Assembly (NCBI GenBank): GCA_047967505.1
Contig: CM106538.1
DNA length: 64,000 nt
Origin: Dipteris shenzhenensis
Taxonomy: Eukaryota
Direction: 5' to 3' (one strand)
Shown here: one piece after another, positions 5,147 through 58,939 of the stretch
Position numbering within the stretch: position 1 is the stretch's first letter
How the letters are laid out: every line of letters starts with the position of its first letter
Notes under the pieces: model-generated
Databases searched by the model: none
What the model was told of the DNA's origin: nothing
The model's input: the letters and a program-made list of their open reading frames with translations, nothing else
Program-made: the position numbers and the translations under genes

Positions 5147-5199
5147 AATCCTATAAGAAAAGATAATGAAGAATTTAGATACATACAAGTAAAGTACAA

Positions 5200-6548: not shown

Positions 6549-6601
<53 letters not shown>

Positions 6602-6764: not shown

Positions 6765-6797
<33 letters not shown>

Positions 6798-9960: not shown

Positions 9961-10421
9961 CCATGCCCCTCCCTCCCTACCTACCACCGCCCTCGCCCCC
10001 ACCCGCCACCCCCTCCCTCCCCTCCCCCTCAGCCCCCGCCCCTCCCTCCCTACCCGGCACCCCCGCTCCTCTCGCTGTTGCCCTCGCCCCCACCCCCCCT
10101 CCCTCGATCCCGCCCCTGCCCCCGCCCCCGCCCCTCCCTCCCCCCCCTCCCTACCTCCCTCGACCCCGCTAGAACCCCCCCTCCCTCCCTCCCTCACTCC
10201 CGTCCCCGCCCCTCCCTCCCCCCGCTCCCTACCTGGCTCCCCTCCCCCCTTCCCCTCCCCCCCCCTCTCCCTCCCTCCACCTAGCCCCTTGCCCCTCCCT
10301 CCCCTCCCCCCTCTCCATCCTCTCCTTCTCCTCCCCTCCTCGTGAACCTCTCTCTCTCTAGTTCCTCTCTCTTCAAATTTAAAAAAAAAAAATCTAGATA
10401 AAGAATTAATCAAAAAAATTT

Positions 10422-10567: not shown

Positions 10568-11179
10568 ATTAGGTTTTCCTCCTCCTCTCCTATTGGCTTT
10601 CCATTCCTCCCCTCTCTCCTATTGCTTTTCATTTATCCCCTCTCCCATTGGCTCCCATTACTCCCCTCTCCCATTGGACCCCCTTATTATCCTACTCCCC
10701 TATTACCTTCCCCTCTCCCATTCCATTCTTCCCTCCCCACTCTCATTTCCACTTCCCATTACTCACTTGCCATCATTTGAAAACTATTAATATATTATTA
10801 TACTATTTTTTATACTTATTATCATACACTCCTATTACTTCCCTCTCCCATTCCACTCCTCCCTCCTCACTCCCACTTCCACTTCCCATTACTCACTTGC
10901 TATACACATTTGCAAACTATTAATATATTATTATATGATTTTTTGTACTATTTGCAAACTTACATGTGGGCAAAATCACAGGTGTCAAAGCAATCCTATT
11001 GTGGTCATACAACAACTATGCTTTTATTCAAGGGCGTATTTATCCTCATCAACAAGCTTATTTACTCAAAGTATGAAGTGCATAATTTGTGCACTAGGTG
11101 TTTACTTTGTTGTATCAAAATTGTTTGCCACACACACACATATACACATACCAAGAATTTTCTAATATTATCGCATCTA

Positions 11180-14100
11180 CATTTCTCCGATGGGCACAAA
11201 ACTTTGTACATGCCTCAACCTAGGTCGTATTGACTTGCATACAAAGTGGTGCACCCATCCCATAAGTACTTGTTCGGATAACACACCTCCAAACATATTT
11301 TATGACGATTGTGCATAACACTAGGAACAAAATGGTGTATAATGTGCGATCGACTATGCAAAGCATATCCAATGGACACAAGACTTTGCACGTTCCTCAA
11401 CCTAGGCAGTATTGACTTGTGTGCAAAGTGGCATCCCCATTCGATAAGTACTTGTTTGAAAAAGACACTTAGGATCATGTTTGAAAAATACACCAAGGCC
11501 AAAAACGGTATTTGATACTCAATCTACCATGTAAAGCATATCCGATGGGCACAATACTTTGCACGTGCCTCAAAAGCGGTGGTATGGTATTCCATGCAAA
11601 GTGGAACGCCCATTCAATAAGTACTTGGTATGATAATATATCTATTAAGAGCATGTTCTCTGACGGATGTGCATAACACTAGGGGGAAAATGGTGTATAA
11701 TGTGTGATCCCCCATGCAAAGCATAACCGATAGACACAATAATGTGCATGCACATCAACCTAGTTGAAATTGACTTTCTTGCAAAGTGGCTCCCCCATTT
11801 GACAAGTACTTTTTAGAATATCACACCTAGGACCATGTTTTTTATTGGTTGTTGTCCATGACACTAAGGCAAAAATGCTGATTTATGCTTAATCGACGAT
11901 GCAATGCATATCCGATCATCACAATACTTTGCACACATCTCAACCTAGGTATTATTGACTTACATGCAAAGTGGCGTGCCCATCCCATAAGTACTTAGTC
12001 GAATAACACATCTAGGACCGCATTTTTTGATGGTTCTGCATGACACTAAGGCCAAAACAGTGTTTAATGCTTGTTCGACAATGCAAAGCATATCCGATGG
12101 GCACAATACTTTGCATGAGTCTCAACAATCGTGGTATTGCATTGCATGCAAAGTGGTACATCCATCTGATAAGCAGTTGGTCGGATAACACACCTAAAAG
12201 CGTGTTTTTTTATGGTTGTGCATGACATTGAGGCACAAACGGAGTTTAATACATGATATGTCATGCAAAGTACATCCGATGGGCACGATACTTTGCACCC
12301 ACCTCAACCTAGGTGTTATTGAGTTGCATGAAAAGTGGCGTGTCAGTTAGATAAGTACTTGATCCGATACCACACCTAGGATCGTGTTTTTTTTAAAATG
12401 TGCTTGACACTAAGGCAAAAACGGTGTTTTATGCTTAATCAACAATGCAAAGCATATCCGATGGGCACAATACTTTGCACACACCTTCAACTAGGTGGAA
12501 TTGACTTACATGCAAAGTGGCACGCCCATCCCATAAGTGCTTGATCGGATAATATACCTAGCAGCGTGTTTTTTTACGGATGTGCATGACACTAGAGCAA
12601 AAATAATATGTAATGCTCGATCGACCATGCAAAGGATATATGATGGGCACAACACTTTTCCTACACCACAACCTAGGTGGTATTGAAATTTTCTCAAAGA
12701 GGCACACCCATCCGATAAGTACTTGGTCAGATAACACACCTAAGGCGTGTTTCTTTGCGGATGTGCATATCACTAGGGAAAAAAAGGTGTATAATGTGTG
12801 ATCGACCATGCAAAGCATATCTGATGGTGACAATACTTTGCACACACCTCAATGTAGTTGAAACAGACTTGCGTCCAAAGTGGAGCCCCCATCCGATAAG
12901 TACTTGTTTCATTAACACACGTAGGACCGTGTTTTTTCATGGTTGTGCATGACACTAAGGCAAAAACGTTGTTTTATGCTTGATCGAGAATGCAAAGCAT
13001 ATCTGATGGGCACAATACTTTCAAATAGGTTGAATTGACTTACATGCAAAGTGGCACTCCCATGCCATAAGTGCTGGATCGGATAACATACCTAGCAACA
13101 TGTTTTTTTACGGATGTGCATGACACTAGAGCAAAAATTGTATTTAATGCTCGATCGACCATACAAAGGATATTAGATGGGCACAACACTTTTTGTACAC
13201 CTCAACCTAGGTGGTATTGAAATGTTCTCAAAGAGGCACACCCATCTGATAAGTACTTGGTCAGATAACACACCTAAGGGCGTGTTTTTTTGCGGATGTG
13301 CATATCACTAGAGAAAAAATGGTGTATAATGCGTGATCGACCATGCAAAGCATATCCGATGGTAACAATACTTGGCACGCACCTCAACGTAGTTGAAACG
13401 GACTTGCGTGCAAAGTGGAGCCCCCATTTGATAAGTATTTGTTTGAATAACACACCTGCGGCCGTGTTTTTATATGGTTGTGCATGACATTAAGGCAAAA
13501 ATGGAGTTTTATACTTTATCGACAATGCAAAGCATATCCGAGGGGCACAATACCTTCCACAAACCTTCAACTAGGTGGAATATACTTACATGCAAAGTGG
13601 CATTCCCATCGCATAAGTACTTGATCAGATAACACACCTAGCAGCGTGTTTTTTTACGGATGTGCATGACACTAAGGCAAAAATGGCATTTAATGCTCGA
13701 TCGACCATGCAAAGCATATCCGATGGGCATAATACTTTTCCTATGCCTCAACCTAGGTGGTATTAAAATGTTCTCAAAGATGCACACCCACCCAATAAGT
13801 ACTTGGTCAGATAACATACCTAAGGGCATGTTCTTCTACGGATGTGCATATCACTACGGGAAAAACATTGTATAATGCATAATCGACCATGCAGAGCATA
13901 TCCGATGGTGACAATACTTTGCATGCATCTCAACCTAGTTGAAATGGACTTGCGTGCAAAGTGGATCCCCCGTCTGATAAGTACTTGTTTGATTAACACA
14001 CTTAGGACCGTGTTTTTTCATGGTTGTGCATGACACTAAACCAAAAAAGGTATTTTATGCTTGATCAACAATGCAAAGCATATCCAATGGGCACAATACT

Positions 14101-17100
14101 TTGCACACACCTTCAAATAGGTGGAATTGACTTACATTCAAAGTGGCACGCCCATCCCATAAGTGCTTGATCGGATAACATACCTAGCAGCGTGTTTTTT
14201 TACGGATGTGCATGAAGCTAGAGCAAAAATAGTATTTAATGCTCGATCGACCATGCAAAGGATATCCGATGGGCACAATACTTTTCCTACACTACAACCT
14301 AGGTGGTATTGAAATGTTCTCAAAGAGGCACACCCATCCGATAAGTACTTGGTCAGAAAACACACCTAAGGGCATGTTTTTTTGCGGATGTGCATATCAC
14401 TAGGGAAAAAACGGTGTATAATGCGCGATCAACCATGCAAAGCATATCCGATGGTGAAAATACTTTGCACGCACCTCAACATAGTTGAAACGGACTTGTG
14501 TGCAAAGTGGAGCCCCTATCCGATTAGTACTTGTTTGATTAACACACCTAGGACCGTGTTTTTTCATGGTTGTGCATGACACTAAGGTAGAAACGTTGTT
14601 TTATGCTTGATTGACAATGCAAAGCTTATCTGATGGGCACAATACTTTGCACACACCTTCAACTAGGTGGAATTGACTTACATGCAAAGTGGCACTCCCA
14701 TGCCATAAGTGCTTGATCGGATAACATACCTAGCAGCATGTTTTTTTACGGATGTGCATGACATTAGAGAAAAAATAGTATTTAATGCTCGATCGACCAT
14801 GCAAAGGATATCCGATGCGCACAAGACTTTTTGTATGCCTCAACCTAGGTGGTATTGAAATGTTCTCAAATGCAAAGGATATCCGATGGGCACAACACTT
14901 TTCGTACGCCTCAACCTAAGTGGTATTGGAATGTTCTCAAAGAGGCACACCCATCTGATAAGTACTTGGTCAGATAACACACCTAAGGGCGTGTTTTTTT
15001 GCGGATGTGGATATCACTCGGGAAAAAATGGTGTATAATGCGTGATTGACCATGCAGAGCATATCCGATGGTGACAATACTTTGCACGCACCTCAACATT
15101 GATGAAACGGACTTGCATGCAAAGTGGAGCCCCCATCCGATAAGTACTTGTTTGAATAACACACCTACGGTCGTGTCTTTATATGGTTGTGCATGACACT
15201 AAGGCAAAAACGTTGTTTTATGCTTGATCGATGTTTGATCGACAATGCAAAGCATATCCGATGGGCACAACACCTTGCACACACCTTCAACTAGGTGGAA
15301 TTGACTTACATGCAAAGTGGCATTCCTATCGCATAAGTACTTAATCGGATAACACACCTAGCAGCGTGTTAACCAGACTTGCGTGCAAACTGGAGACCCC
15401 ATCTGATAAGTACTTATTTGATTAACACACTTAGGACCGTGTTTTTTCATGGTTCTGCATGACACAGGCAAAAATGGTGTTTTATGCTTGATAAACAATG
15501 CAAAGCATATCCGATGGGCACAATACTTTGCACACACCTTCCACTAGGTGGAATTGAATTACATGCAAAGTGGTACACCCATCCCATAAGTGCTTGATCG
15601 GATAACATACCTAGCAGCGTGTTTTTTTTACGGATGTGCATGACACTATAGCAAAAATAGTATTTAATGCTTGATTGACCATGCAAAGGATATCCGATGG
15701 GCACAATAATTTTCCTACACTGCAACCTAGGTGGTATTGCAATGTTCTCAAAGAGGCACACCCATCCGATAAGTACTTGGTCAGATAATAGACCTAAGGG
15801 CGTGTTTTTTTGTGGATGTGCATATCACTCAGGAAAAAATGGTGTATAATGTGTGATCGACCATGCAAAGCATACCCGATGGAGACAATACTTTGCACGC
15901 ATCTCAATGTAGTTGAAACGGACTTGCTTGCAAAGTGGAGCCCCCATCCGATAAGTACTTGTTTGAATAACACACCTACGGCCGTGTTTTTTCATGGTTG
16001 TGCATGACACTAAGGCAAAAACGGTGTTTTATGCTTGATCGACAATGCAAAGCATATCGGATGGGCACAATACTTTGCACACACCTTCAACTAGGTGGAA
16101 TTGATTTACATGCAAAGTGGCATTCCCATCGCATAAGTACTTGATTGGATAACACACCTAGCAGCGTGTTTTTTATGGATGTGCATGACACTAAGGCAAA
16201 AATGGTATTTAATGCTCGATCGACCATGCAAAGCATATCCGATGGGCACAATACTTTTCCTATGCCTTAACCTAGGTGGTATTGAAATGTTCTTAAAGAG
16301 GCACACCCATCCGAAAAGTACTTGGTTAGATAACATACCTAAGGGTGTGTTTTTTTGCGGATGTGCATATCACTACGGGAAAAACGTTGTATAATGTGTA
16401 ATCGACCATGCAGAGCATATCCAATGCTGACAATACTTTGCATGCATCTCAACCTAGTTGAAACAGACTTGCGTGCAAACTGGAGCCCCCATCCCATAAT
16501 TACTTGTTTGATTAACACACTTAGGACCGTGTTTTTTCATGGTTGTGCATGACACTAAGCCAAAAACAGTGTTTTATGCTTGATCGACAATGCAAAGCAT
16601 ATCCGATGGGCACAATACTTTGCACACACCTTCAAATAGGTGGAATTAACTTACATGCAAAGTGGCACACCCATCCCATAAGTGCTCGATCGGATAACAT
16701 ACCGAGCAGACTGTTTTTTTTACAGATGTGCATGACACTAGAGCAAAAATAGTATTTAATGCTCGACCGACCATGCAAAGGATATCCGATGGGCACATTA
16801 CTTTTCCTACACTGTAATCTAGGTGGTATTGAAATGTTCTCAAAGAGGCACACCCATCCAATAAGTACTTGGTCAGATAACACACCTAAGGGTGTGTTTT
16901 TTTTGCAGATGTGCATATCACTAGGGAATAAACGGTGTATAATGCGTGATCGACCATGCAAAGCATATCCAATGGTGACAATATTTTGCATGCACCTCAA
17001 CGTAGTTGAAATGGACTTGCATGCAAAGTGGAGCCCCCATCCGATAAGTACTTGTTTGATTAACACAGCTAGGACCGTGTTTTTTCATGGTTGTGCATGA

Positions 17101-20100
17101 CACTAAAGCAAAAACGGTGTTTTATGCTTGATCGACAATACAAAGCATATCCGATGGGCACAATACTTTGCACACACCTTCAACTAGGTGGAATTGACTT
17201 ACATGCAAAGTAGCACTCCCATCCCATAAGTGCTTGATCGGATAACATACATAGCAGCGTGTTTTTTTACGGATGTGCATGACACTGGAGCAGAAATAGT
17301 ATTTAATGCTCGATCGACCATGCAAAGGATATCCGATGGGCACAACACTTTTCGTACACCTCAACCTAGGTGGTATTGAAATGTTCTCAAAGAAGCACAC
17401 CCATCCGATAAGTACTTGGTCAGATAACACAGCTAAGGGCGTGTTTTTATGCGGATGTGCATATCACTAGAGAATAAACGGTGTATAATTCGTGATCGAC
17501 TATGCAAAGCATATCCGATGGTGACAATACTTTGCATGCACCTCAAAGTATTTGAAACAGACTTGCGTTCAAAGTGGAGCCCCCATCCGATAAGTACTTG
17601 TTTGAATAACACACCTAGGACTGTGTTTTTTCATGGTTGTGCATGACACTAAGGCAAAAACGGCGTTTTATGCTTGATCGACAATGCAAAGCATATCCGA
17701 TGGGCACAATACTTTGCACACACCTTCAACTAGGTGGAATTGACTTACATGCAAAGTGGCACACCCATCCCATAAGTGCTTGATCGGATAACATACCTAG
17801 CAATGTGTTTTTTACAGATGTGCATGACACTAGAGCAAAAATTGTATTTAATGCTCGATCGACAATGCAAAGGATATCCGATGGGCACAACACTTTTCCT
17901 ACACCGCAATCTAGGTGGTATTGAAATGTTCTCAAAGAGGCACACCCATCCAATAAGTACTTGGTCAGATAACACACCTAAGGGTGTGTTTTTTTGTGGA
18001 TGTGCATATCAGTAGAGAAAAATGATGTATAAAGCGTGATCGACCATGCAAAGCATATCCGATGGTGACAATACTTTGCACGCACCTCAATGTAGTTGAA
18101 ACGGACTTGCGTGCAAAGTGGAGGCCCCATCCGATAAGTACTTGTTTGAATAACACACCTAGGACCGTGTTTTTTAATGGTTGTGCATGACACTAAGGCA
18201 AAAACGGTGTTTTATGCTTGATCGACAATGCAAAGCATATCCGGTGGGCACAATACTTTGTACACACCTTCAAATAGGTGGAATTGATTACATGCAAAGT
18301 GGCACACCCATCCCATAAGTGCTTGATCAGATAACAGACCTAGCAACGTGTTTTTTTTACAGATGTGCATGACACTAGAGCAAAAATAGTATATTTAATG
18401 CTCGATTGACCATGCAAAGGATATCCGATGGGCACAATACTTTTCCTACACCGCAACCTAGGTGGTATTTAAATGTTCTCAAAGAGGCACACACATCCGA
18501 TAAGTACTTGGTTAGATAACACACCTAAGGGCATGTTTTTTTGCGGATGTGCATATCACTAGGGAAGAAATGGTGTATAATGCATGATCAACCATGCAAA
18601 GCATATCCGATGGTGACAATACTTTGCATGCACCTGAAAGTAGTTGAAACAGACTTGCGTGCAAAGTGGAGCCCCCATCCGATAAGTACTTGTTTGATTA
18701 ACACACTTAGGACCGTGTTTTTTCATGGTTGTGCATGACACTAAGGCAAAAACGGTGTTTTATGCTTGATCGACAATGCAAAGCATATCCAATGGGCACA
18801 ATACTTTGCACACACCTTCAACTAGGTGGAATTGACTTACATGCAAAGTGGCACACCCATATCATAAGTGCTTGATCAGATATTATACCTAGCAACATGT
18901 TTTTTTATGGATGTGCATGACACTAGAGCAAAAATTGTATTTAATGCTCGATCGACAATGCAAAGGATATCCGATGGGCACAACACTTTTCCTACACCGC
19001 AGCATAGGTGGTATTGAAATGTTCTCAAAGAGGCACACCCATCTGATAAGTACTTGGTCAGATAACACACCTAAGGGAGTATTTTTTTGCAGATGTGCAT
19101 ATCACTAGGGAATAAACGGTGTATAATGCGTGATCGACCATGCAAAGCATATACGATGGTGACAATACTTTTCACGCACCTCAACGTAGTTGAAATGGAC
19201 CTGCGTGCAAAGTGGAGCCCCCATCCGATAAGTACTTGTTTGATTAACACACCTAGGACCGTGTTTTTTCATGGTTGTGCATGACACTCAGGCAAAAACG
19301 GAGTTTTATGCTTGATCGACAATACAAAGCATATCCGATGGGCACAATACCTTGCACACACCTTCAAATAGGTGGAATTAACTTACATGCAAAGTAGCAC
19401 TTCCATCCCATAAGTGCTTGATCGGATAACTTACCTAGCAACGTGTTTTTTTACGGATGTGCATGACACTAGAGCAAAAATTGTATTTAATGCTCGATCG
19501 ACCATGCAAAGGAAATCCGATTGGCACAACACTTTTCATACACCTCAACCTAGGTGGTATTGAGATATTCTCAAAGAGGCACACCCATCCGACAAGTACT
19601 TGGTCAGATAACACACCTAAGGGCGTGTTTTTTTATGGATGTGCATATCAGTAGAGGAAAAATGGTGTATAATGTGTGATTGACCATGCAAAGCATATCC
19701 GATGGTGATACTACTTTGCATGCACCTCAATGTAGTTGAAACGGACTTGCGTGCAAAGTGGAGCCCCCATCCGATAAGTACTTGTTTGAATAACACACCT
19801 AGGACCGTGTTTCTTCATGGTTGTGCATGACACTAAGGCGAAAAAGGTGTTTTATTCTTGATCGACAATGCAAAGCATATCCGATGGGCACAATACTTTG
19901 CACACACCTTCAATTAGGTAAAATTGACTTACATGCAAAGTGGCACGCCCATCCCATAAGTGCTTGATTAGATAACATACCTAGCAGCATCTTTTTCTAC
20001 GGATGTGCATGACACTAGATCAAAAATGGTATTTAATGCTCGATCGACCATGCAAAGGATATCCGATGGGCACAACACTTTTTGTATGCCTCAACCTAGG

Positions 20101-22820
20101 TGGTATTGAAATGTTCTCAAAGAGGCACACCCGTCCGATAATTACTTGGTCAGATAACACACCTAAGAGGGTGTTTTTTTGCAGATGTCCACATCACTAG
20201 GGAAAAAATGGTGTATAATGCGTGATCGACCATGAAAAGCTGGTAACAATACTTTGCACGCACCTCAACGCTGTTGAAACGGACTTGGGTGCAAAGTGGA
20301 GCCCCCATTCAATAAGTAGTTGTTTGAATAACACACCTACGGCCGTGTTTTTATATGGTTGTGCATGACACTAAGGCAGAAACGGTGTTTTATGCTTGAT
20401 CGACAATGCGAAGCATATTCGATGGGAACAATACTTTGCACACACATTCAACTAGGTAGAACTGACTTACGTGCAAAGTGGCATTCCCATCGCATAAGTA
20501 CTTGATCGGATAACACACCTAGCAGCGTGTTTTTTTACGAATGTGCATGACACCAAGGCAAAAATGGTATTTAATGCTTGATTGACCATCCAAAGCATAT
20601 CCGATGGGCACAATACTTTTCCTACACCGCAACCTAGGTGGTATCAAAATGTTCTCAAAGAGACACACCCATCCGATAAGTACTTGGTCAGATAACACAC
20701 CTAAGGGCATGTTCTTTTGCAGATGTGCATATCACTAAGGAAAAAACGGTGTATAATGCATGATCAACCATGCAAAGCATATCCGATGGTGACAATACTT
20801 TGCACGCACCTGAAAGTAGTTGAAACGGACTTGCGTGCAAAGTGGAGCCCCCATCCGATAAGTACTTCTTTGATTAACACACCTAGGACCGTGTTTTTTC
20901 ATGGTTGTGCATGACACTAAGCCAAAAACGGTGTTTTATGCTTGATCGACAATGCAAAGCATATCCGATGGGCACAATACTTTGCACACACCTTCAACTA
21001 GGTGGAATTGACTTACATGCAATGTGGCACACCCATCCCATAAGTGCTTGATCGGATAACATACCTAGCAGTGTGTTTTTTTTACGGATGTGCATGACAC
21101 TAGAGCAAAAATAGTATTTAATGCTCGATCGACTATGCAAAGGATATCCGATGGGCACAATACTTTTCCTACATTGCAACCTAGGTGGTATTGAAATGTT
21201 CTGAAAGAGGCACACCCATCCGATAAGTACTTGGTCAGTTAACACACCTAAGGGCATGTTGTTTTGCGGATGTGCATATCACTAGGAAAAAAATGGTGTA
21301 TAATGGGTGATCGACCATGAAAATCATATCCGATGGTGACAATACTTTGCACGCACCTCAACCTAGTTGAAACGGACTTGCATGCAAAGTGGAGCCCCCA
21401 TCCAATAAGTACTTGTTTGATGAACACACCTAGGACCGTGTTTTTTCATGGTTGTGCATGACACTAAGGCAAAAACGTTGTTTTATGCTTGATCGACAAT
21501 GTAAAGCATATCCGTTGGGCACAATACTTTGCACACAACTTCAACAAGGTGGAATTGACTTACATGGAAAGTGGCACACCCATCCCATAAGTGCTTGATC
21601 GCATAACATACCTAGCAGCGTGTTTTTTTTACGGATGTGCATGACACTAGAGCAAAAATAGTATTTAATGCTTGATTGACAATGCAAAGGATATCCGATG
21701 GGCACAATACTTTTCCTAAACTGCAACCTAGGTGGTATTGAAATGTTCGCAAAGAGGCACACCCATCCGATACGTACTTGGTTAGATAACACACCTAAGG
21801 GCGTGTTTTCTTGCGGATGTGCATATCTGTAGGGAAAAAATGGTGTATAATGCGTGATCGACCATGCAAAGCATATACGATGGTGACAATACTTTGCACA
21901 CACCTCAAAATAGGTGAAACAGACTTGCATGCAAAGTGGAGCCCCCATCCGATAAGTACTTGTTTGAATAACACACCTAGGACCGTGTTTTTTCATGGTT
22001 GTGCATGACACTAAGGGAAAAACGGTGTTTTATGCTTGATCGACAATACAAAGCATATCCGATGGGCACAATACTTTGCACACACCTTCAACAAGGTGGA
22101 ATTGACTTACATGCAAAGTAGCACTCCCATCCCATAAGTGCTTGATCAGATAACATACCTAGCAGCATGTTTTTTTACGGATGTGCATGACACTGGAGCA
22201 AAAATAGTATTTAATGCTCGATCGACCATGCAAAGGATATCCGATGGGCACAATACTTTTCCTACACCGCAACCTAGGTGCTATTGAAATGTTCTCAAAG
22301 AGGCACACCCATTCGATAAGTACTTGGTCAGATAACATACCTAAGGGTGTGTTTTTTTGTGGATGTGCATATCACTACGGGAAAAACGTTGTATAATGTG
22401 TGATCGACCATGCAAAGCATATCGGATGGTTACAATACTTTGCACGCACCTCAAGGTAGTTGAAACGGACTTGCATGCAAAGTGGAGCCCCCATCCGATA
22501 AGTACTTGTTTGATTAACACACTTAGGACCGTGTTTTTTAATGGCTGTGCATGACACTAAGGCAAAAACGGTGTTTTATGCTTGATCGACAATGCAAAGC
22601 ATATCGGATGGGCACAATACTTTGCACACACCTTCAGCTAGGTGGAATTGACTTACATGCAAAGTGGCACTCCCATCCCATAAGTGCTTGATCGGATAAC
22701 ATGCCTAGCAGCGTGTTTTTTTTACAGATGCATGACACTAGAGCAAAAATAGTATTTAATGCTCGATCGACCATGCAAAGGATAACTTGGCGTGTCCATC
22801 TGATGAGTACTTGATCGGAT
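11180..22820. repeat. Tandem satellite of ~64 monomers of ~182 bp, organised as a 3-monomer ~546-bp higher-order repeat (~19-20 HOR copies); left ~1.2 kb more divergent
   Basis: Marker GGATGTGCATATCACT recurs at ~12759, 13294, 13840, 14386 ... 21815 and 22361, mostly 545-547 bp apart. TGCAAAG(C/G)ATATCCGATGG and ATAAGT(A/G)CTTG recur about every 182 bp. Confidence 0.97.
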
Positions 22821-22948
22821 AACTTCTCCCACCAATAAATTAAGTACTAATTAAAAATTATAATAAATGAGTAGATTATTAAAAAGAGACTAATATTTAT
22901 GTAATTGTTGCTACTACAGCTTGCTTGCGAAGGACTCTCACAGAGGAG

Positions 22949-25900
22949 ATGGCTATAGATTTTGTTCCAGGGATGGATGTGATTTCATGTAGCAAAAGAG
23001 AAGTAGTTGCATTTGCTACAATCCATGATAGTGATCCCAATTCAGTTTGCCACTTTCGAAGACTTGGCGAAGATAAGGTGGCAGTTACTGTATCAAAGAT
23101 TCTTAGCACACATGTTGAGCTAAAGTATAAATGTGGAGATATGGAAACACTTGGAGATGTTATGCCCTACAATACATCCAACAAATCATTTATAGCATGG
23201 GACAAAGATGAGACTTATGCAGCAGACATTATCAAGAATACAAAGTGCACCACCTTGGATTTTACTATAGGGGACATTTTACAAATGAGATCATTTCCAA
23301 ATAAGACTGTAGCAGAAGGTGAAGTATTGGGGGGTTGAACAAGTGGAGCAATGGTCATTTGCACAGATGAGGATTCGAAAAGTCACTGATGATGGTATGG
23401 TCGATAACATAACATCCTTATGTGATCCCTACTATGAGGTAGGCAAGAATATGAGATGGAGCATGCAATTTTTAAACATGAGAAAGAGGCACATGGTTTT
23501 CAATGATAAAGACAAAGTATACTACAATATCAAAGGACCTAAAAAGCGTGCCCATGTGCCAGGCTCTATCACTTCAAATGTGGATGATTTCAATATACTC
23601 AATTATAGAAGTGACATCTGGAGTGGATGAGTTCATTGGTTCCGAGAAACAAAATGATTTTAGAAGTGAAGCCTTATCTGGGGTGGATGAATTCTTGCAC
23701 AGTGAGAAGGGCAAAGGTTTCAATAGCGATGTCTTGTCAAGTGTGGATGAGTTCATGCATATTAACAAACCTGGTGTCAATCAAGCTTGTGGATTTGTGA
23801 AAGCCATGCAAGATGTCCCAATGAGTGATGTTCTCTCAGGAGTGGAAGAGTTTCAAGGTTCTCAATACTCTTGTAGAATATTGAATTCATTGAATGGTCC
23901 TAAGAGTATGTTAAAAACGAGGATGAGATCAACAGAGGATTATTCAATATTTAACTTTGATTGTGATATGGCCAAGGATGCAACGACCAATCATGGATGC
24001 TTGGTTACAAACAAATGTGAGAAGAAGAAGTGCATAAATACAGATAACAACATGCACGAGGAACGAAAACGGTCATACATATGCATGAAGAGAAAGCGAA
24101 TCCAGGCAGATCCACAAAAGCAACCAAAGAGGAAGAGAGTAATGAAGGAGGAGAACATGTTAAATGCATTGGGATATCTATGTTGCAAGCGAAGATATAT
24201 GCGCTTCATTGATCTTGCAGGCATCAGGGAATGTAGAGGGCACGTGTGGCAAAGAAGAGGAAGCAAAAGAAATGAATACCTTCTCACAAGTCTCTCTTGC
24301 TTTCTTCAGAATGGCAATAAAAGGCTAAGTTCAAGACAAAAGGTAAAACCTCTCGTAAATGGAAAAAGGATTTGCAATAAGGCATATCGCAATATTACTA
24401 GATTATCCCATTGTACATATTGGGATTTAGTCACCAAGGCAAAGGGCGGCAACAAATTTAGCATTCACGATAATAGAGGAAGGTCCAAATCAAGAATCTC
24501 AATTGTCAGGGCAGCAGCAATTTTGCAAGACTTCATACATGAAAATGCTTTATCTCAACCCCATATATCTACCAAACTCCCTAATAGTGACGCGATCACT
24601 GAAATGCACCTTGCAATGGGCTTGACAAAGCTTGAAGTATTTGACTCTATTGCAAAAAAGCAAAGGCAAAGAGGGGATGCCATAGCGTCTTCTCATACTT
24701 TGTATACTCTTTGGAAGAAGAACTTTGGATATGTTAAAATCCCAAGGAGGCAAAAAATATCAAAGTGCAATGTATGTGATGATTTAAAGCGAGCGATTGA
24801 GAGTGCAACATGTCCAAATCAAAGGGAATTATACAAAAAAAACTGAAAATCTCATCATGACCTTATTCGACATTCCAGACAAAAATATGCATTTTGGAAG
24901 GAGCAAGCTATTTCGCATCCCGAAGACTACATGTGCCTTATTGCAGATGGCATGGATCAGAATACGACAACATTACCTCATCTTGTTGCCACTCCACCTA
25001 AATTACAAGGAAAGCACTTTCTAAAGACACATCTATGTGGAGTGTTAGTGCATGGAATTAAGTTCTTTGTAGATATATGGATTGATTCCTTACATGATAG
25101 CAATCAAGTTGTAACATCTATTATGAAGGCAATTCGCAATGTACATGCAGAAAAAGGTCGCCTACCACCAACTTTGAGAATACAAGCTGATAATTGCTAG
25201 CGAGAAAATAAGAATGTACTCATGTTTGCATTCTGCTCCATGCTAGTTGCTCATCGAATCTTCAATGAGGTCGAATGTGGATTTTTGTATGTTGGGCATA
25301 CACATGAGGATATCGATCAGGTTTTTAGCACAGTCTCAAGGGAGCTTAAATGCAAGGATGTGGAGACAATAGATGACTTGGTAAGAAGATGTGGCAGGCA
25401 AGTTGGTGGTCGTAAGGAAAGTACAGTATGTGAGAGGCTCGAAAGAATGTATGATTGGAAGAGCTTCATTCTACCTTTCATACAAATGGGTGGTGATGCA
25501 TTGATAGGTCATACCAATCCACACTACTTTCGTTTTTTTTTGAAAGATGAAAAACCTGTAATGCAATGGCAACAGTATTCTCATGATACAAAATGGGAAC
25601 CTGAAGAACCTTACAGTCTCTTAACTTCAATTCCCAGCAAGGAAAGGTATCCAACATGGGCTCCTATACAAGAATTCAATGAGAGGTCTAACTGTGAAAT
25701 AGAAGGATTAAAAGCATTTATTACATACAAAGAGGAAATGTTCCAGAGATATCCTGATTCGAAGCCTACTTGGAGAGAACACACTACCACTATAATTAAC
25801 AAGACATGAAAGAAATTTAATAAAGGACCTTGAGAGAATGAGAGGCTCAAAGGATGTCAAGGAAGAATGCAATATGTTTTGGCCAAATGTTCATAACGAT

Positions 25901-26413
25901 TTGCACCCAGCTCCAGTCTTTGAAAATGAATTTGTATCATTACTCCCACGTCCATATTGTGGACCGAAGAAGAGAGAGTTTATGCCACAAGTAGATATAA
26001 AGGTCGATTGTTTTGTTGTGGTTCGGCCATCAGATGATGAATATGAGAATGTGAAGTTTTGGGTTGCAAAAGTAGTTGATGCGCAAAGAGATGACCAAGG
26101 GAGAGCTACAACATTTACAGTGGTATGGTATGAGCCAAAGGGCAGGAAGGAGAATATGGATAACAACACATTGTATACTAATTGTATAATGAAAGAGTGG
26201 GTCCCAAATGATGAAGCGGTCTCTCAAGTTTCGACGGAGACAATCATAGTGTCTTGGCATTCAAGGGCAAAGAAATCAAAGAAGCGCATGGGATATGAGG
26301 TAGAAGGAAAAATAAAAATACCATAGCAAACTATTTTGCATATACACGAATTTTTAAGGATGCTCGCCATGGAGGAAGTAGAAGGAGACAGCGCAAATGA
26401 AGAATGTCCATGA
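22949..26413 (+). pseudogene. Decayed DUF7869/Sola1-like transposase with N-terminal Tnp1/En/Spm-like domain(s) and a C-terminal SH3/Tudor-like segment
   Basis: Motifs ISKCNVC, CLIADGMDQNTTTLPH, THLCGVLVHG, PPTLRIQADNC*RENKN, FLYVGHTHEDIDQVFS, PHYFRF and FWVAKVV...VVWYEP. Frameshifts occur at ~23335, ~23625 and ~24840, and stops at 25198, 25807 and 26324. Acceptor CTACAG at 22919 precedes ATG 22949. Confidence 0.8.
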
Positions 26414-26530
26414 TTAAAGCTTTGTATTGAAGTCCATTGAAGGATTTTATTTGGGTACTAGGGAAGAAGCCAATCCAAGACAATTATAATCAGAGTCATC
26501 ACTTCCTATGTCAAATGAGAGTCAAAATAT

Positions 26531-27542: not shown

Positions 27543-30058
27543 CGTGGATCCTCTCTACGAGGGAGGAGGCAGTGATTAAGGTAGACATTGCCTCTTTTCA
27601 AACACCGACAGGTACATGCGTTGCATGAAAGGAGCATTTTCAAAGGACAATAAGCTTAGTGGGCTCAAGTCCCATGATTGGCAGAAGGTCTTACAGGTAT
27701 TCTAAGCTATAGAATTAGTGTACCGATAATCATGATGCGTTAGCATCATTATGATTATGTTATATTGTTGACATGACTTCTTTGTTGCTTTGATAGTTCA
27801 TCCTCCCAATTACAATAAAAGGTTGCTTACAAGAAGATGTTAGAAATGCTATATTCAAGATCAATGGTATTGTGAGGTATTCTTACTATCAAATCACATT
27901 GATTGCATTTTCTTCAATTTAACCTGAATAATCTATAGATTGATTATGAATATATCTTACATGGACATGTGAAATAGGTGGATATCTCAAAAAGAGATCT
28001 CCATATCGAGCATCGAGAAGGCTAGGGTGGAATCCATCGAAGCCATATGCTTGCTTGAGAAGCACTTTCCCTCGAGCATTATGACAACTCAAGTCCACTT
28101 GCTTGTGCACATAGTTGATGAGGTGGCTATTGTGGGTACCGTTCATAGTCGATGGATGCTTTTTCTCGAGTGGTTTATGAAAACTTTGAAGGGATTTGTA
28201 AGACAAAGAGCAAGACCAGAAGCAAGCATGGTAGAGGGATGGCTTGTGCAAGAGTCATTAGTATATATCATGGAGTTTCTTGCATCCATAGATTCTAATA
28301 TGCCGCAAGCTTGGCATAACAAGGATGATGATCGCATCGTTGGCGAGGTTCCCCAAGGAAAAGGGGTTGAAAGAAAGATGAGCGAAAAGCAGAAATTCAA
28401 TAAGTTTTGTATCCTCAATAGCCCTGAGATGCAAAAGTGGTTTGAGAGATATGAAGTGGCCAAAGCAGAAAGAATAAATGCAAGGACGAGATTAAGAGTA
28501 ATGTACAGGCGATCGCAACCATGTCCACGGGATCTGGCTCTTCTCCCCACTCACATGTCACTTGATTGGCTACAACTGGCTCTACGTAAAGCTGAACGCG
28601 ATGGAGAGACAATAAACAAGTGCGAGCGAGAGTTATCATCTGGATGTATGATGTATGTAATTTTCTTACCTCTTGACGTAATTAACTAATTATTTGTGGC
28701 AATATACGCTATAAAATAGATGCATCTTCATTGTTTTAATGATGCTCTTTTATAGTACAAAAAGTATAGTGCATTATGGTCATATGGATGACATTTTTGC
28801 GTGGAATGCATCGATTCAAAGAGAGTCACATATGATTGTGGAGTCATGGCTATCTTCACACAGGGTAGCCAAGAAAGTGCTTTGGATACCAATCTTCTCT
28901 CCTCACAGTTGGATTATTGTGGAACCATACGCGAAATCTATGAAGTTGATTTCAGACGATTTAGTATTTTCATTCTTGATGTAAAATGGTTTAGAACTAT
29001 TTACAACGGTCCCCCTGCGACAGTGAGAATAGATAGTAGCGGTTTCTTTGCAATAGACTCCACCAAACATTGGACCGATGAAAGTGATACTTTTGTTCTT
29101 CCCGAGCACTGTGAGTAGGTGCATACTAATGATTTAATTAATCGAAGCTTTTGTTTTTAAAGATCCATTGATACATGTACTTAAGCATAATTTCATATAT
29201 ATAATTGACGACATCTAGCACCCATCTTCAATATAGGTGGTTTTTCATCCAGATCGTTCTAATCCAAGATGGTGGTACGTGATCCAAGTTGCACCATGAA
29301 GTAAGCAAATTTTTGAAGATAGAGATGTGGATATGGGGATGCCACTACCAATGCTGGATCCAATTGATCCCGATGAATCTAGAAAAGAAGATGAAGATCA
29401 CAATATGAGCCAAGAGGAAGATGCACATAATGACATCACATAGAAGGAAGATGGAGATCACGATATTGAGGAAGAAGACAACGATCATCAAGAATCACCA
29501 CACTTTATTGAAGAAGATGATCAAGTACTTTTAGGTGAACGTACGATGCTAGAGTACGATGATGATATAGGATATCAACTCGGTATAGAGTTAGAGATAG
29601 ACTTGTTTGGTGCATTAGACTTGGCTCAAAATGAAACAGTTGATGTAAATGCTCTTCATTGATTTTTTTCATCTCAAACTTGGACATGAATATATGAGCT
29701 TCAAAGGCTTGATGTACATGCTCTCATACTTTTAGTCTCTCAAAAGATCAAACATGTATGAAAATTTAAAAAAATTTACCATTGGAAAAAACTAACTTTT
29801 AAGGCCTATATGAGTAAAAAAGCTCTCTGGAAAAGTCGCTATAAAATAGTATCTCAATGTCACTATATAGTGACACTTACATTTTTGACAAATGTTGCAA
29901 TATAGTGACTTTAGAAATCGTCACTGTATAGTGACATTTGCTTAAAGTCGCTATATAGTGATGCTTTACGGGATGCGCTTCCCATACCGATGATTAGCAC
30001 CCCACGCATGCTAAACGTCGGTACTTAAACATCGCAATAGCATCCGTGTGTAGTAGTG
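27543..30058 (+). mobile_element. CACTA/En-Spm transposon, 3' half (TnpD-like pseudogene with DUF4218- and DUF4216-like exons, subterminal repeats, right TIR)
   Basis: Exons read LSGLKSHDWQKVLQ|, EKHFPSSIMTTQVHLLVH...RWM...KGFVRQRARPEASMVEG and YCGTIREIYEVDF...DVKWF...FVLPEHCE, followed by an acidic tail. GTC(G/A)CTATATAGTGA repeats lie at 29835-29962, and the element ends TGTGTAGTAGTG at 30058 (reverse complement CACTACTACACA). Confidence 0.9.
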
Positions 30059-30126: not shown

Positions 30127-30129
30127 ATA

Positions 30130-55030: not shown

Positions 55031-58000
55031 CACGTAGAATAGAGAATGCACACCCCTCAAATACTGTTGTCGATGTTGCAGTAAAAAGATGATCCTACTC
55101 CATGCTATCATCCCTCCCTAAGGACTCATGGGCAAATAAATCTTGCACCCTATCATTGAACACCCCCTCCTCCAGGGCTACTATCACCATCACTCCATGC
55201 ATCCATAATGGTCCCCCCCGAAGATCCCACCTCATATCACTGATGCTTTGCCTCCTGACATGACGAGCATAGAGCAACATATGTGGGTGTGGCACTGCAT
55301 CCTATGTCAAATAGAAAAGGAGCACATATCAAACAATTGAACACCCATAGGTATCTCAATTAACCTCAAAGTTTTAACACTTTCCATGGATGTGGTCACA
55401 TCCCATTCTCTATACTTTAAGATGTGACTGAGTGTAATTTTATGTGCACGACACATGTTCCCTCAACATCGCTCCAACCACATTTCTTGATTGTGGAGAT
55501 GGAGGGATTCATCCTCACTGGAGGTGCTTGTTGAAGATGAGGACATCCTATAAATAATCACAACTCAAAAATTTAGTCCAAAATGTTAGTCAAGCCCTTC
55601 AAATTTGTACCCAAATTATGTGTAGCACTCTTACCGCATCTGTACTGTGAAAATGCATCTATAGGTACGTCTATTACACAATACAAATGCATCTATAGAT
55701 GCATGTTTAGACGTGCTTCTTGGTTTAAAACCTACATCAACAAAAGCTTTTCCTCACTACGCCATGCTTGCTTTCCTCTCACCTTGTTTTTCCATCCCTA
55801 AGATTAGCTCATCTTCAAGCATATATACCTCATCTCCAAGCATACAAGAGAAGAGGGTGAAGAAGGAGGCCACAAGTGAAGAGGGAAAATAAGGTATTGA
55901 GAATAAGGAGAAGAAGCTTTTCATACCTCTATTGAAGATAAGTCTCTTGTCGGTTGCTCTTCTCTCTCAATCTATGATGCTTCTTGTACTTGTGGAAAGA
56001 TGTTTTCTTCAGATTCATCCTCTTTGGCACAAGAAAGAATGTTTTTGGGCACTTTTTTTTAATCTAGAGGTCGTTTAGTCTGTTGTTGTCAGATTTTTAT
56101 CGAGTTTTGGGTGCCAAAGCACATGTAACAGTGCGTCTAACAAAGCATCAAGCTATTTTTGAACTATGTACCTGTGCCTATAGATGTGTTGGTAGCTGTG
56201 GTGACAGTTTGATAAAAAATTTCCCCGTCTCCTATTTCCCTTTTTCTTCTCCTTCTCCTTCCCAATCCATTTTCCCTTCTTCTTTTTTCCCTTTTCCTTC
56301 TCCTTCTCCTTCTCATTCCCTTTTCCTTCTCCTTCTCTCTCATCCCCCTTCTCATTTTTTAATTTTCCTATACTCATTCCGTCTTCTCCTCCTTCTCTTT
56401 CTCTTCTCTTTCTTGATCCTTTCTTCTCCTTTCCCTCGGGAGGTGCACTACTAAGAAATCCTAGGTATCATGTGCATTCAAGGTGTCTTTGAAACATCCC
56501 TCAACTAAAATTTTTGCTCCAATAAAACTACCCCTCTTTAGTTATGAACTAAGGGATTTTTTTCTAAAGTTGAAATTTAAAACCCCTCTTGTTATTTTAA
56601 TCGTATTAAAATTTTCTCAAAAGTGGGATTAAAATACCCCTCTTTTTTAATGTGTGTGGTACACTAAAATCTTTGGAGGTGAAGCCCCCGTGTCCTTTCC
56701 CTTGCATGCATAATTAATGCATGTATAAGTTGAATTTTCAATGCATTGAGATGGGGTAGGTTGTATGCATTGTTCTTTCCTTCTAATTGATGGTCATGAA
56801 TATGCATATGCATGTGTATTGGGGTAGAGCATGCTTTTTTATGCTTTTGGAAAGAGGTATGCATGATGGAAATAAGGGATTGCATGAGGGAAATAGGGGA
56901 AGCATGAAGGAAATTGGGATAAAGCATGCTTCTTCCTCTTATTCTCTTCCTCCCTTTATTTCTTCTCTTCTTTCTTTCTTCTCTTTTCTTCTATGCTCTT
57001 CTTCTCTTCTTGTCTTTTCTCTCTTCTTCTCCTAATCCCTTCCTTTATTTTCTTCTTTCTCCTCTTCTATTCTTTTCTGTTCTTCTTTTTTCTCTTATTA
57101 CTCTGATTCTCTTCTCTTTTCTCTTCTTTTATATCTTCTTCTTTCTCTTATTACTCCTAGTTTGTATGCTCTACTCATTACTTGCCTTATTCTATGTGTC
57201 TGTGTATTTCTAGTTCATCATGTGGCGAGGAAGCTCTTCAAGAGGTTTTCCTGATCCTCAAGATGCATTTTCACAGCAATTATATAATATATTGGGGCAC
57301 ACTCCCACTCCATAGGAGTTATATACATACACACCCATACAACTTGAGGTCACCCAAGGGGTCACTCCTTTAGAGTAGAGACAACCCAATAGAAGTCAGA
57401 GCCGCCAACCCTTTCTCGTGCAGTTAGGATCCCCTTCTAGGTCACAGAGCCGCCAACCTACTCTTGTGCAGCCAGGAGCCTTTTACAAATTGCAGAGCTA
57501 TGTGCCTACTCTTGTGTAGTCGGGAGCCCCTTTTGCAGAGGTGAGTGTCCATCACAGTAGCTCATCACAATGTAGCAGCAGGCGTAGTAGCAAGGAGAGT
57601 AGCCACACAAGATGCATGGCATAGTGCTTTGGGGGTGGGGATGATTCAGATGCAGATGTGGGAGAGGGTGATGGTATGATATACTATGATATCACTAAGA
57701 TGGGTAGCATCTTGCAAGATTCATGAAGGAAGGAAGTCATGTCATTCATGCACTCTATAGTTCATAAGCACTACTACACACAGGCCTTATTTTGATGGTT
57801 AAGTGTCGACGTTTAGTGTGTGTGGTGTGCTAATCATCGGTACATAAGGTGGGCTTAAAACGGTTGGTATATAGCGACTAAAGGTCACTATACACCAAAT
57901 TTTTACAAAGGTCGCTATATAATGACCTTTATAAAATGTTGGTATATAGCAATGTTTCTAAGACTTGTAAATGTTGGGTATATAGTGACATTTTTAGACT

Positions 58001-58939
58001 TGTAAAATGTCGTTATATTATGACTCGGAGACACTTTCCTATAGCGACGTTTTACAGAGAGTATTTTTTCCCATATCGACCTTTAAAGATAGTTTTTGCC
58101 AATGACAAAAAAAGATCTTTTCATACATTTTTGATCCTTTGAATGAATAAAAGTACAAGAGCATGTACATCAAGTTTAAAGCTGAACATATATTCATCGT
58201 GTCCAATTTTGAGATGAAAAAAATCAATGAAGAGCATTTACATCAACGGCTTCATCCTGAGCCAACTCTAGCATGCCAAACAAATCTATCTCCAACTCTA
58301 TACCAAGTTGATCTCCTATATCATCATCATACATCCACCTAAGACTTGGTGTTCTTCAATAAAGTCGAGTGATTCTTGATGATCATCATCTTCTTCCTCA
58401 ATATCATGATCTCCATCTTCCTCTCGTATGATGTCATTATGTGCATCTTCCCCTTGGCTCATATTGTGATCTTCATCTTCTTTGCTAGATCAATTTGGAT
58501 CAAGTGGATTTGGCATTGGTAGTGGCATCTCCATATCTACATCTCTATCTTCAAAAATTTGCTTACTTCGTGGTGCAACTTGGATCACATACCACCATCT
58601 TAGATCAAAAACGATCCGAATGAAAAACCACCTATATTGAAGATGGTGCCAAATGCCATCAATTATATGAATTTATGCTTAAGTACATGTACCAATTGAT
58701 CTTTAAAAATGAAAGCTTTGATTAATTAAATCATTAGTATGCACTGCTCACAATGGTTAGGAAGAACAAAAGTATCACTTTCATTGGTCCAAAGTTTGGT
58801 GGTCTATTGCAAACAAACCACTACTGTCTTTCCTCACTGTCACATGGGGACCGTTGTAAATAGTTCTAAACCATTTTACATCAAGATTGAAATTACTAAA
58901 TCTTATGAAATAAATTTCATAGATTCCATACCCACCATT

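What the first reader, a model, noticed from the sequence alone, without database searches (positions are those of the whole stretch)
11180..22820. 182-bp x 3 higher-order satellite inside a putative transposon
Seen: three monomer types alternate regularly (A: CACACCTTCAACTAGGTGGAATTGAC; B: CAACCTAGGTGGTATTGAAATGTTCTCAAAGAGG; C: CCTCAACGTAGTTGAAACGGACTTGC), giving a ~546-bp period, with divergent monomers at the left edge (11180-12400). Known: ~180-bp monomers, HOR organisation and divergent edge monomers are typical of centromeric satellites. Inference: this is a TE-borne satellite seed or nucleosome-phasing array.
Basis: partly seen in the sequence, partly recalled or inferred. Interest (0 to 1): 0.7.

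Follow-up and report, generated by a model that had tools for sequence, protein, structure and literature searches.

The report
Three-monomer satellite array beside transposon genes
An 11.6-kb tandem array of 182-bp units, organised as a regular three-unit (546-bp) higher-order repeat, sits just upstream of a transposon gene in a transposon-rich stretch of a plant-like genome, which is a known kind of transposon-associated satellite and shows no sign of being a centromere.

Summary
From 11186 to 22823 (+) there are 67 head-to-tail hits of a 182-bp unit. Monomers three apart are 88% identical, against 74% for neighbours. Seven divergent monomers form the left edge, followed by about 19 regular ABC units.

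The array is non-coding, has no Rfam or tRNA match, and shows no 10-bp nucleosome-positioning signal. Its copies are star-like, about 6% from consensus, with four-fold excess decay at CpG sites. That pattern fits an old, methylated, non-homogenised array.

It ends 127 bp before the ATG of a roughly 1,120-codon DUF7869 gene, broken in this copy. A TNP2-type (DUF4218) transposase remnant follows, then a canonical CACTA terminus at 30058. Public contigs cover the array and these genes in several sequence variants.

The left transposon end was not found, so "inside a transposon" is only partly shown. Satellite arrays inside CACTA elements are already described (PMC8978399). Verdict: real, ordinary, a new member of a known kind.

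The parts
11186..12393 (+). Left edge of the array: 7 divergent 182-bp monomers. The first is partial and starts at model position 57.
   Evidence: 78-84% identity to the best class consensus; they branch basally on long branches.
12401..22784 (+). Regular trimeric higher-order array: A-B-C, 3 x 182 = 546 bp, about 19 units.
   Evidence: lag-3 identity 0.877 against 0.74, three clades at 100% support, monomers 90-98% identical to their class consensus.
14755..15007 (+). B monomer with an internal duplication of about 72 bp (model 1-116 followed by 45-182).
   Evidence: and the TRF 71-bp x 2 row at 14799-14941.
15190..15454 (+). Deletion junction inside the array: A (model 1-170) joined to C (model 102-181).
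22788..22823 (+). Degenerate terminal monomer fragment (model 118-153). It follows a B monomer that stops at model position 56.
22824..22949 (+). AT-rich 126-bp spacer between the array and the first ATG of the downstream ORF. It may hold that gene's promoter (inferred).
   Evidence: Sequence read.
22950..26323 (+). DUF7869-family gene of about 1,120 codons. In this copy it is broken by two frameshifts and two in-frame stops (TGA at 24844, TAG at 25198).
   Evidence: Pfam DUF7869 at E 2.5e-13 and 5.1e-33. Colinear with a 1055-aa relative. Contig indels at 23332, 23615 and 25808 join the frames, and 25199 A>G turns TAG into TGG in other copies.
27973..28686 (+). C-terminal (DUF4218) part of a TNP2-type CACTA transposase. 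The Transposase_21 part is missing.
   Evidence: Pfam DUF4218 at E 7e-24. 5 of 15 relatives carry PF02992 plus PF13960. No Transposase_21 in 16 short upstream ORFs.
28935..30058 (+). 3' subterminal region with short GTCRCTATA-type repeats. The CACTA terminus ...GTGTGTAGTAGTG ends at 30058.
57769..58925 (-). Homologous terminal region of a second, inverted copy of the same CACTA family. Its terminus CACTACTACACAC starts at 57769.
   Evidence: 84% identity over 932 bp, and similarity stops exactly at the terminus.

Best explanation
The array is a transposon-associated tandem-repeat module. It is a non-coding 182-bp repeat lying directly upstream of a DUF7869-family mobile-element gene, within a repeated block that ends in a CACTA (En/Spm-type) terminus.

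Most likely history (inferred):
1. A 182-bp segment was duplicated in place by slippage, unequal exchange or faulty gap repair.
2. Early monomers diverged to about 25%.
3. Three adjacent monomers were then amplified together, in one burst, to about 19-20 copies. This created the 546-bp higher-order period.
4. Since then the copies have decayed independently under cytosine methylation, with no homogenisation.
5. The array spreads, if at all, by being copied along with its host element.

It most probably has no cellular function. At most it serves as a methylation or small-RNA target, or as promoter-proximal spacer for the element's gene.

Shown here: the repeat architecture, its decay pattern, its position next to the gene, the CACTA terminus, and the existence of several contig variants. 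Inferred: the mode of origin, co-mobility with the element, and lack of function.
For: Architecture.

Burst followed by decay:
- Identity between same-class monomers is flat at 0.875-0.880 for distances of 1 to 8 higher-order units.
- Within-class forks are mostly unresolved, and sister monomers are not neighbours.
- Monomers differ from their class consensus at 652 of 10,671 sites. At CpG sites this is 169/858 (19.7%); elsewhere it is 483/9,813 (4.9%). C>T plus G>A make up 271 of the 652 changes.

Not a gene or a known RNA:
- The consensus 546-mer has 4-11 stops per unit in all six frames.
- There are 0 Rfam and 0 tRNA hits.

Neighbourhood:
- The array ends at 22823 and the ATG is at 22950.
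- DUF7869 hits lie at 24847-25806.
- The ORFs are colinear with a 1055-aa relative.
- 180 proteins match at E<=1e-5. All 120 listed carry PF25273, and many come from repeated loci.
- DUF4218 is found at 27973-28686, with Transposase_21-bearing relatives.
- The terminus CACTACTACACAC is shared with a second inverted copy, and similarity ends exactly at the last base.

Repeated family:
- Contigs laid on 20000-31000 number 427 (X1), 321 (X2) and 43 (X3), at 85-100% identity.
- Up to 7 different contigs cover one place in the DUF4218 part.
- 2-3 contigs cover places in the DUF7869 gene, and 3-4 cover places in the array.
- Contigs carry TGG where the window has TAG (25199), and carry indels at 23332, 23615 and 25808 that fuse the window's ORFs. 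The window therefore holds a decayed copy of a family with an open frame.
- Table-3 rows at 22792 and 22916 share one contig's depth value in X1 and in X2. I read this as one contig crossing the array/gene junction.
- A 30-nt loose end in X1 equals window 11156-11185, the array's left junction.

Phase: the array starts at model position 57, and the last regular monomer stops at position 56. That is what in-place duplication of one segment predicts.

Precedent:
- A 5.5-kb array of 32.5 x 171-bp monomers lies inside CACTA element Jozin (PMC8978399, passages read).
- Many wheat satellites show 100% CACTA homology (PMC13525055, passages read).
Against: - No left CACTA terminus was found anywhere in 1-29000, allowing up to 3 mismatches in the 19-mer and up to 2 in the 13-mer. 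The subterminal motif is also absent there. The array is therefore not shown to lie between two ends of one element.
- The Transposase_21 half of the CACTA transposase is absent.
- Contigs break away at 27089 and 27541. The DUF7869 part and the CACTA part may thus be two different repeats joined in this copy.
- DUF7869 shows no profile similarity to TNP2 transposases (hhalign probability 0.2%) and none to any solved transposase. Its role as a transposase rests only on conserved acidic motifs and on its repeated occurrence.
- Contigs in X2 and X3 start matching only at 22842 with unrelated sequence before it, and one in X2 leaves at 22878. Some copies therefore do not share this array/gene junction.
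- No progenitor of the monomer was found elsewhere in the window.
- The second CACTA copy shows no monomers in its visible 6 kb.
Confidence: 0.6

Rival explanations
1. This is a host-genome satellite array unrelated to any transposon. The DUF7869 element and the CACTA fragment merely landed beside it, or were joined to it by rearrangement.
For: - No left terminus was found.
- Loose ends at 22842 and 22878 show other junctions in other copies.
- No monomer-like progenitor occurs in the transposon sequences.
- The surrounding region is a mosaic of nested repeats.
Against: - No monomers lie to the right of the transposon genes or anywhere else in the window, so the elements did not insert into a larger array.
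- The array stops 127 bp before the gene's ATG.
- A contig in each of X1 and X2, with letters different from the window, appears to bridge the junction.
- The array's start and end are in matching monomer phase.
Confidence: 0.2
2. The array works as a cis-acting module of the element. It could be a phased-nucleosome, methylation or small-RNA platform, or a repeated protein-binding region controlling the promoter of the adjacent gene. From memory, this would be comparable to the repetitive control regions at the 5' end of maize En/Spm.
For: - It lies immediately upstream of the gene start.
- The monomer length is nucleosome-sized.
- Each monomer carries an imperfect dyad. There are 34 weak minus-strand self-hits, and the single-strand fold has z = -3.2, with 1 of 100 shuffles folding as well.
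- The motif ATCCGAT recurs in both orientations within a monomer (seen directly in the consensus).
- CpG decay implies methylation.
- A distant DUF7869 locus (L001) has blocks of ~147-bp tandem repeats around its gene.
Against: - There is no 10-bp WW periodicity above shuffles: 62 of 100 shuffles reach the array's value, 17 of 100 reach the consensus value, and monomers A/B/C give 0.63/0.18/0.32.
- Monomer classes differ by 24-30% and copies decay freely, with no conserved block beyond about 30 bp.
- Only 3 of 37 related loci show tandem repeats of period >=50 with >=2.5 copies.
Confidence: 0.12
3. This is a functional centromeric or pericentromeric satellite, or a fragment of one.
For: The ~180-bp monomer, the higher-order organisation and the divergent edge monomers resemble centromeric satellites (general knowledge).
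Against: - The array is only 11.6 kb.
- Higher-order copies are about 88% alike with no distance dependence. From memory, active centromeric higher-order repeats are usually well above 95% alike and locally homogenised.
- It is flanked by transposon genes.
- The motif was not found in any paper's text.
Confidence: 0.05

Closest known systems
SatDNA array inside the CACTA-like element Jozin of Chenopodium quinoa (PMC8978399; passages read)
   Same: A kilobase-scale array of nucleosome-sized monomers (171 bp x 32.5 = 5.5 kb) lies within or next to a CACTA element that carries a TNP2-type transposase. It recurs in several element copies and is dispersed on chromosomes.
   Different: Here the array is twice as long and has a regular three-monomer higher-order period. 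It lies upstream of the genes, not near the 3' end. It is adjacent to a DUF7869 gene. Only one CACTA end is seen.
CACTA-derived satellites: CficCl-61-40 in Chenopodium (PMC7320549, abstract) and many TaeSat families in wheat (PMC13525055, passages)
   Same: Tandem arrays whose monomers are linked to CACTA elements.
   Different: In those cases the monomer is homologous to a part of the element, for example a tnp2 fragment. Here no progenitor sequence was found in the element.
Central tandem repeats of non-autonomous Helentrons (Cg_HINE) in the Pacific oyster (PMC7492417, abstract)
   Same: Satellite-like repeats carried and spread by a DNA transposon.
   Different: Those belong to a different superfamily, form short arrays and sit in non-autonomous elements. 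The abstract mentions no higher-order structure.
Satellites born from tandem repeats inside LTR retrotransposons in Lathyrus sativus (PMC7004042, abstract)
   Same: Short arrays inside a mobile element that occasionally expand.
   Different: The host element there is a retrotransposon, and expansion occurs in primary constrictions. Here no expanded arrays are known.
Primate alpha-satellite higher-order repeats (general knowledge; PMC4431391 seen in the search listing only)
   Same: Monomers of about 171-182 bp. Distinct monomer classes occur in fixed order. Identity between higher-order copies exceeds identity between neighbouring monomers. Divergent monomers sit at array edges.
   Different: Alpha-satellite arrays are megabase-sized, highly homogenised and bound by centromeric histone. 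Here the array is 11.6 kb, its copies are 88% alike and star-like, and no centromere evidence exists.

Membership tests
Satellite-type tandem repeat with higher-order repeat (HOR) organisation | Head-to-tail monomers of constant length | tested here: met
   67 contiguous + strand hits; all three class consensuses are 182 bp.
Satellite-type tandem repeat with higher-order repeat (HOR) organisation | Distinct monomer classes in a fixed cyclic order, with higher identity at the HOR period than between neighbours | tested here: met
   Lag-3 identity 0.877 against 0.74. A, B and C clades each at 100%. ABC order holds from 12401 to 22784.
Satellite-type tandem repeat with higher-order repeat (HOR) organisation | High copy number in long arrays across the genome | tested here: inconclusive
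   No genome is held. Contigs of 3 runs hold monomers, but contig depth cannot give copy number. There were 0 matches in metagenome contigs.
Centromeric satellite | Association with the centromeric histone or the primary constriction | not testable with these tools
   Needs ChIP-seq or FISH.
Centromeric satellite | Long, locally homogenised arrays (near-identical HOR copies) | tested here: not met
   The array is 11.6 kb and its HOR copies are about 88% alike at all distances. The homogeneity expectation is recalled, not taken from a call.
CACTA / En-Spm (CMC) DNA transposon | Terminal inverted repeats beginning CACTA...TAGTG | tested here: inconclusive
   The right end is met...GTAGTAGTG ends at 30058 and is shared with a second copy at 57769. 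No matching left end exists in the window.
CACTA / En-Spm (CMC) DNA transposon | Subterminal short repeats in direct and inverted orientation | tested here: met
   GTCRCTATA / TATAGYGAC motifs cluster at 29835-29962 and 57870-58048. Seen at the 3' end only.
CACTA / En-Spm (CMC) DNA transposon | TNP2-type transposase (Transposase_21 plus DUF4218) | tested here: inconclusive
   DUF4218 is present at 84 bits, and 5 of 15 relatives carry PF02992 plus PF13960. Transposase_21 is absent from this copy.
CACTA / En-Spm (CMC) DNA transposon | 3-bp target-site duplication | not testable with these tools
   Only one end of each copy is visible. The flanking triplets are TCT (element 1) and, read outward, CTT (element 2).
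Transposon-borne satellite array (as in Jozin or Cg_HINE) | The same array flanked on both sides by the element's own sequence, between its ends, in several copies | tested here: inconclusive
   The right flank is transposon sequence, and one contig per run seems to bridge it. The left junction is present in X1 contigs. Other contigs show different junctions at 22842 and 22878. The left end was not found.
DUF7869 (PF25273) protein family | Pfam match above the gathering score and colinearity with full-length members | tested here: met
   50.5 and 114.7 bits against a cut-off of 26. Alignments to P0008 residues 209-461 and 899-994.

The most novel reading that the evidence does not exclude
DUF7869 elements may be an unclassified family of mobile elements that habitually carry nucleosome-sized tandem-repeat blocks next to their gene. 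They are found here in a plant-like genome, and their relatives occur in marine invertebrates and in many unnamed eukaryotic contigs. On this reading, the 546-bp higher-order array is a mobile satellite 'seed', able to found new satellite or centromere arrays wherever the element lands.
Probability: 0.08. Interest if true: 0.6.

Novelty: new member of a known kind. Interest (0 to 1): 0.3.

Why it matters
If the array travels with its host element, this locus is a clean example of how a higher-order satellite can form inside mobile DNA and be scattered through a genome. That is the proposed first step in the birth of new satellites. The principle is already documented for CACTA, Helentron and LTR elements.

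Two things could be added here:
- a well-resolved trimeric higher-order stage;
- a link to the uncharacterised DUF7869 gene family.

As it stands, this is an ordinary piece of decaying, methylated repeat DNA.

Tried and rejected
**Searches that found nothing or were not possible**
- Whole-genome search: no genome is held.
- Earlier notes of this scan: nothing by place, sequence or words.
- RNA evidence: no RNA holder listed.
- Satellite pattern in metagenome contigs: 0 matches.
- Monomer motifs in paper texts: 0 papers. 'DUF7869' in papers: 0 papers.
- Coding repeat (546 = 182 codons): rejected, with 4-11 stops per consensus unit in all frames.
- Origin from tRNA, 5S or another RNA: 0 Rfam hits at E<=1 and 0 tRNAs.
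- Progenitor of the monomer elsewhere in the window: only chance-level hits.
- Left CACTA end or subterminal motifs in 1-29000: none. A 15-bp AT-rich inverted match (27043-27057 against 10926-10940, E 0.03) was judged chance.
- 10-bp WW periodicity: not above shuffles.

**Read laying: what I did not use**
- Contig depth is no copy number, so I draw nothing from the higher summed depth over the array than over the genes.
- The stretch 29909-31000 has almost no cover.

**The DUF7869 protein**
- Against TNP2 profiles: no similarity.
- Against solved structures: only chance-level hits, including a weak BAH-domain hit at E 0.04.
- The N-terminal ORF 22883-23335 has no similarity to the family profile.
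- Structure prediction was not accepted by the tool on two tries, so the fold is untested.

**Other**
- Left ORFs 1973-5245 (-): no Pfam hit, no word-index relatives, and 11 weak HMMER relatives, of which the 8 scanned have no informative Pfam family. The Atlas gave no usable hit.
- The sigma-70 promoter scan is a bacterial model and was disregarded.
- Supplements of the papers were not opened.


Full report
**1.

TRF finds a 182-bp period over 11490-14858 and 15376-22784. A profile built from twelve monomers gives 101 hits in the window. Of these, 67 are on the + strand and form one uninterrupted series from 11186 to 22823. The other 34 are weak minus-strand hits inside the array, and nothing lies outside it.

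I analysed the 61 hits that cover at least 160 model positions and left out the six partial ones. Mean identity is 0.74 at monomer lags 1 and 2 and 0.877 at lag 3, and this pattern repeats up to lag 15.

Clustering gives three classes whose consensuses are each exactly 182 bp. Identity is 88-91% within classes and 71-76% between them. In a maximum-likelihood tree, A (20 monomers), B (17) and C (18) are each one clade at 100% bootstrap, and the six edge monomers branch basally on long branches.

**2. Anatomy of the array**

- Seven divergent monomers occupy 11186-12393, at 78-84% identity to any class consensus.
- From 12401 to 22784 the order is strictly A-B-C for about 19 units of 546 bp, with monomers 90-98% identical to their class consensus.
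- One B monomer carries a 72-bp internal duplication (14755-15007).
- One deletion joins A to the last 80 bp of C (15370/15375).
- The array begins at model position 57. The last regular monomer stops at position 56, followed by a 36-bp degenerate fragment (22788-22823).
- The matching phase of the two ends is what duplication of a single segment in place would leave. The trailing fragment makes this less clean.

**3. What the array is not**

- Although 546 is a multiple of three, the consensus unit has 4-11 stops in every frame.
- It has no Rfam or tRNA match.
- It shows no 10-bp WW periodicity above shuffled controls.
- Each monomer has an imperfect dyad. This accounts for the minus-strand self-hits and for a single-strand fold z-score of -3.2. 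That is common in satellites and proves little.

**4. History read from the copies**

Identity between same-class monomers does not fall with distance: it is 0.875-0.880 from 1 to 8 higher-order units apart. Within-class tree forks are mostly unresolved, and sister monomers are not neighbours.

Monomers differ from their class consensus at 6.1% of sites. CpG sites changed four times as often as other sites (19.7% against 4.9%), and C>T and G>A dominate. CpG observed/expected is 0.68 in the array, 0.47 in the adjacent genes, and 0.30-0.32 in the rest of the window.

I infer three steps:
- an early phase in which 182-bp monomers diverged to about 25%;
- one burst that amplified a trimer;
- independent decay afterwards under cytosine methylation, without homogenisation.

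This is unlike what I recall of active centromeric higher-order arrays.

**5. Surroundings**

The window is a mosaic of repeats.

*The gene next to the array*
- Directly right of the array lies a 126-bp AT-rich spacer, then an ATG at 22950.
- The ORFs from there to 26323 carry DUF7869. They are colinear with a 1055-aa relative, P0008.
- The family has 180 matches at E<=1e-5. Named matches come from echinoderms, hemichordates, amphioxus, molluscs, a sponge and a coral. Closer unnamed matches come from other sources.
- Twenty-six members share invariant DGMDQ, QADN and GHTHEDIDQ motifs. These look like a catalytic acidic triad (inference).
- The family shows no profile similarity to TNP2 transposases or to any solved structure.
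- In this copy the gene is broken by a TGA at 24844, a TAG at 25198 and two frameshifts.

*The CACTA part*
- Further right, 27973-28686 encodes the DUF4218 part of a TNP2-type CACTA transposase.
- Its relatives carry Transposase_21 plus DUF4218 in 5 of 15 cases. The nearest named relatives are from a fern.
- The Transposase_21 half is missing here.
- The block ends at 30058 in ...GTGTGTAGTAGTG, preceded by short subterminal repeats.
- A second, inverted copy of the last 1.1 kb lies at 57769-58925. The two copies stop being alike exactly at the terminal base.

This is a genuine CACTA end. No left end or subterminal motif is found anywhere to the left.

**6. Evidence from public runs**

Three runs hold parts of 20000-29000. 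One is labelled only as organism A; two are labelled algae metagenome. Their contigs were laid on 20000-31000 at 85% or more identity.

- They number 427, 321 and 43 pieces, spread over all identity bands.
- Several different contigs cover one place: up to 7 in the DUF4218 part, 2-3 in the DUF7869 gene, and 3-4 in the array.
- Every contig over 25199 reads TGG instead of the window's TAG.
- Contig indels at 23332, 23615 and 25808 are exactly those that fuse the window's ORFs into one frame (my frame arithmetic). The family therefore has copies with an open gene, and the window holds a decayed one.
- One contig in X1 and one in X2, each differing from the window, seem to cross the array/gene junction. 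Rows at 22792 and 22916 carry the same depth value.
- An X1 contig carries the array's exact left junction.

Against a fixed structure:
- contigs in X2 and X3 join 22842 to unrelated sequence, and one in X2 leaves at 22878;
- contigs break away at 27089 and 27541. The DUF7869 part and the CACTA part may therefore be separate repeats joined in this lineage.

Depth values and uncovered stretches are not used as evidence.

**7. Comparison with what is known**

- Satellite arrays inside CACTA elements are in print. A 5.5-kb array of 171-bp monomers lies inside Jozin in quinoa, recurs in several copies and is dispersed by FISH (PMC8978399, passages).
- A major Chenopodium satellite starts from a tnp2 fragment (PMC7320549, abstract).
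- Many wheat satellites are CACTA-derived (PMC13525055, passages).
- Helentrons in oyster and LTR elements in Lathyrus carry similar seeds (abstracts).

Compared with these, the present case adds three things: a clear trimeric higher-order stage, a position upstream of the genes, and the DUF7869 neighbour. Among 37 distant DUF7869 loci from metagenome contigs, 3 have tandem repeats of period 50 or more. One of these, L001, has ~147-bp blocks in both orientations around the gene. This is a weak hint only.

**8. Verdict**

The array is real and its description accurate. It is best read as a transposon-associated tandem-repeat module in decay (confidence 0.6). "Inside a transposon" is shown only on one side. 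There is no support for a centromeric or nucleosome-phasing role. It is a new member of a known kind, of modest interest.

Noticed in passing
window 8100-10350 (also 6513-7350 and 50244-51034): A very C-rich minisatellite lies 850 bp left of the 182-bp array. It has 72% G+C, GC skew -0.63, and units of about 62-93 bp. The unit contains a palindromic core, TCTGGCGGCCGCGGCCGCCAGA-like, with NotI-type sites. CT microsatellites precede it. A G-rich mirror-image low-complexity region lies at 50.2-51.0 kb. I could not tell whether it belongs to the same element.
   Followed up: partly
window 1973-5245 (-) and 5366-5800: A run of six nearly contiguous ORFs on the minus strand spans about 3.3 kb and is broken by frameshifts. 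It has no Pfam family and only 11 weak relatives among 1.8 billion representatives. Short repeats of the type ATCTGTCCACTGATA lie next to it. It may be an unclassified mobile element.
   Followed up: partly
window 57769-58925 and 30046-30058: Two copies of the same CACTA 3' end face each other tail to tail, 27.7 kb apart. Nested Copia elements lie between them.
   Followed up: yes
window 38700-45417, 59797-60517, 34979-37854, 63206-64000: - A degenerate Copia element has LTRs 89.7% alike (38700-39251 and 44856-45417).
- A third LTR copy lies at 59797-60517.
- A small LTR pair is 94% alike (34979-35337 and 37494-37854) around a gag fragment.
- A Copia RT fragment sits at the window's end.
   Followed up: partly
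window 62398-63348: A 477-bp segment is duplicated in tandem at 98% identity.
   Followed up: no
L001:103-553, 1697-2230, 3725-4160: A metagenome contig encoding a distant DUF7869 relative (34% identity) has three blocks of ~147-bp tandem repeats around the gene, one direct and two inverted.
   Followed up: partly
proteins P0008 and relatives (alignment A3): The DUF7869 family has invariant DGMDQ, QADN and GHTHEDIDQ motifs and a CxxC pair. Its C-terminal part gives a weak BAH-domain-like hit (E 0.04). No paper in the library mentions the family.
   Followed up: partly
window 26530-26847: A 175-bp unit is repeated 1.8 times at 95% identity, just downstream of the DUF7869 gene.
   Followed up: no
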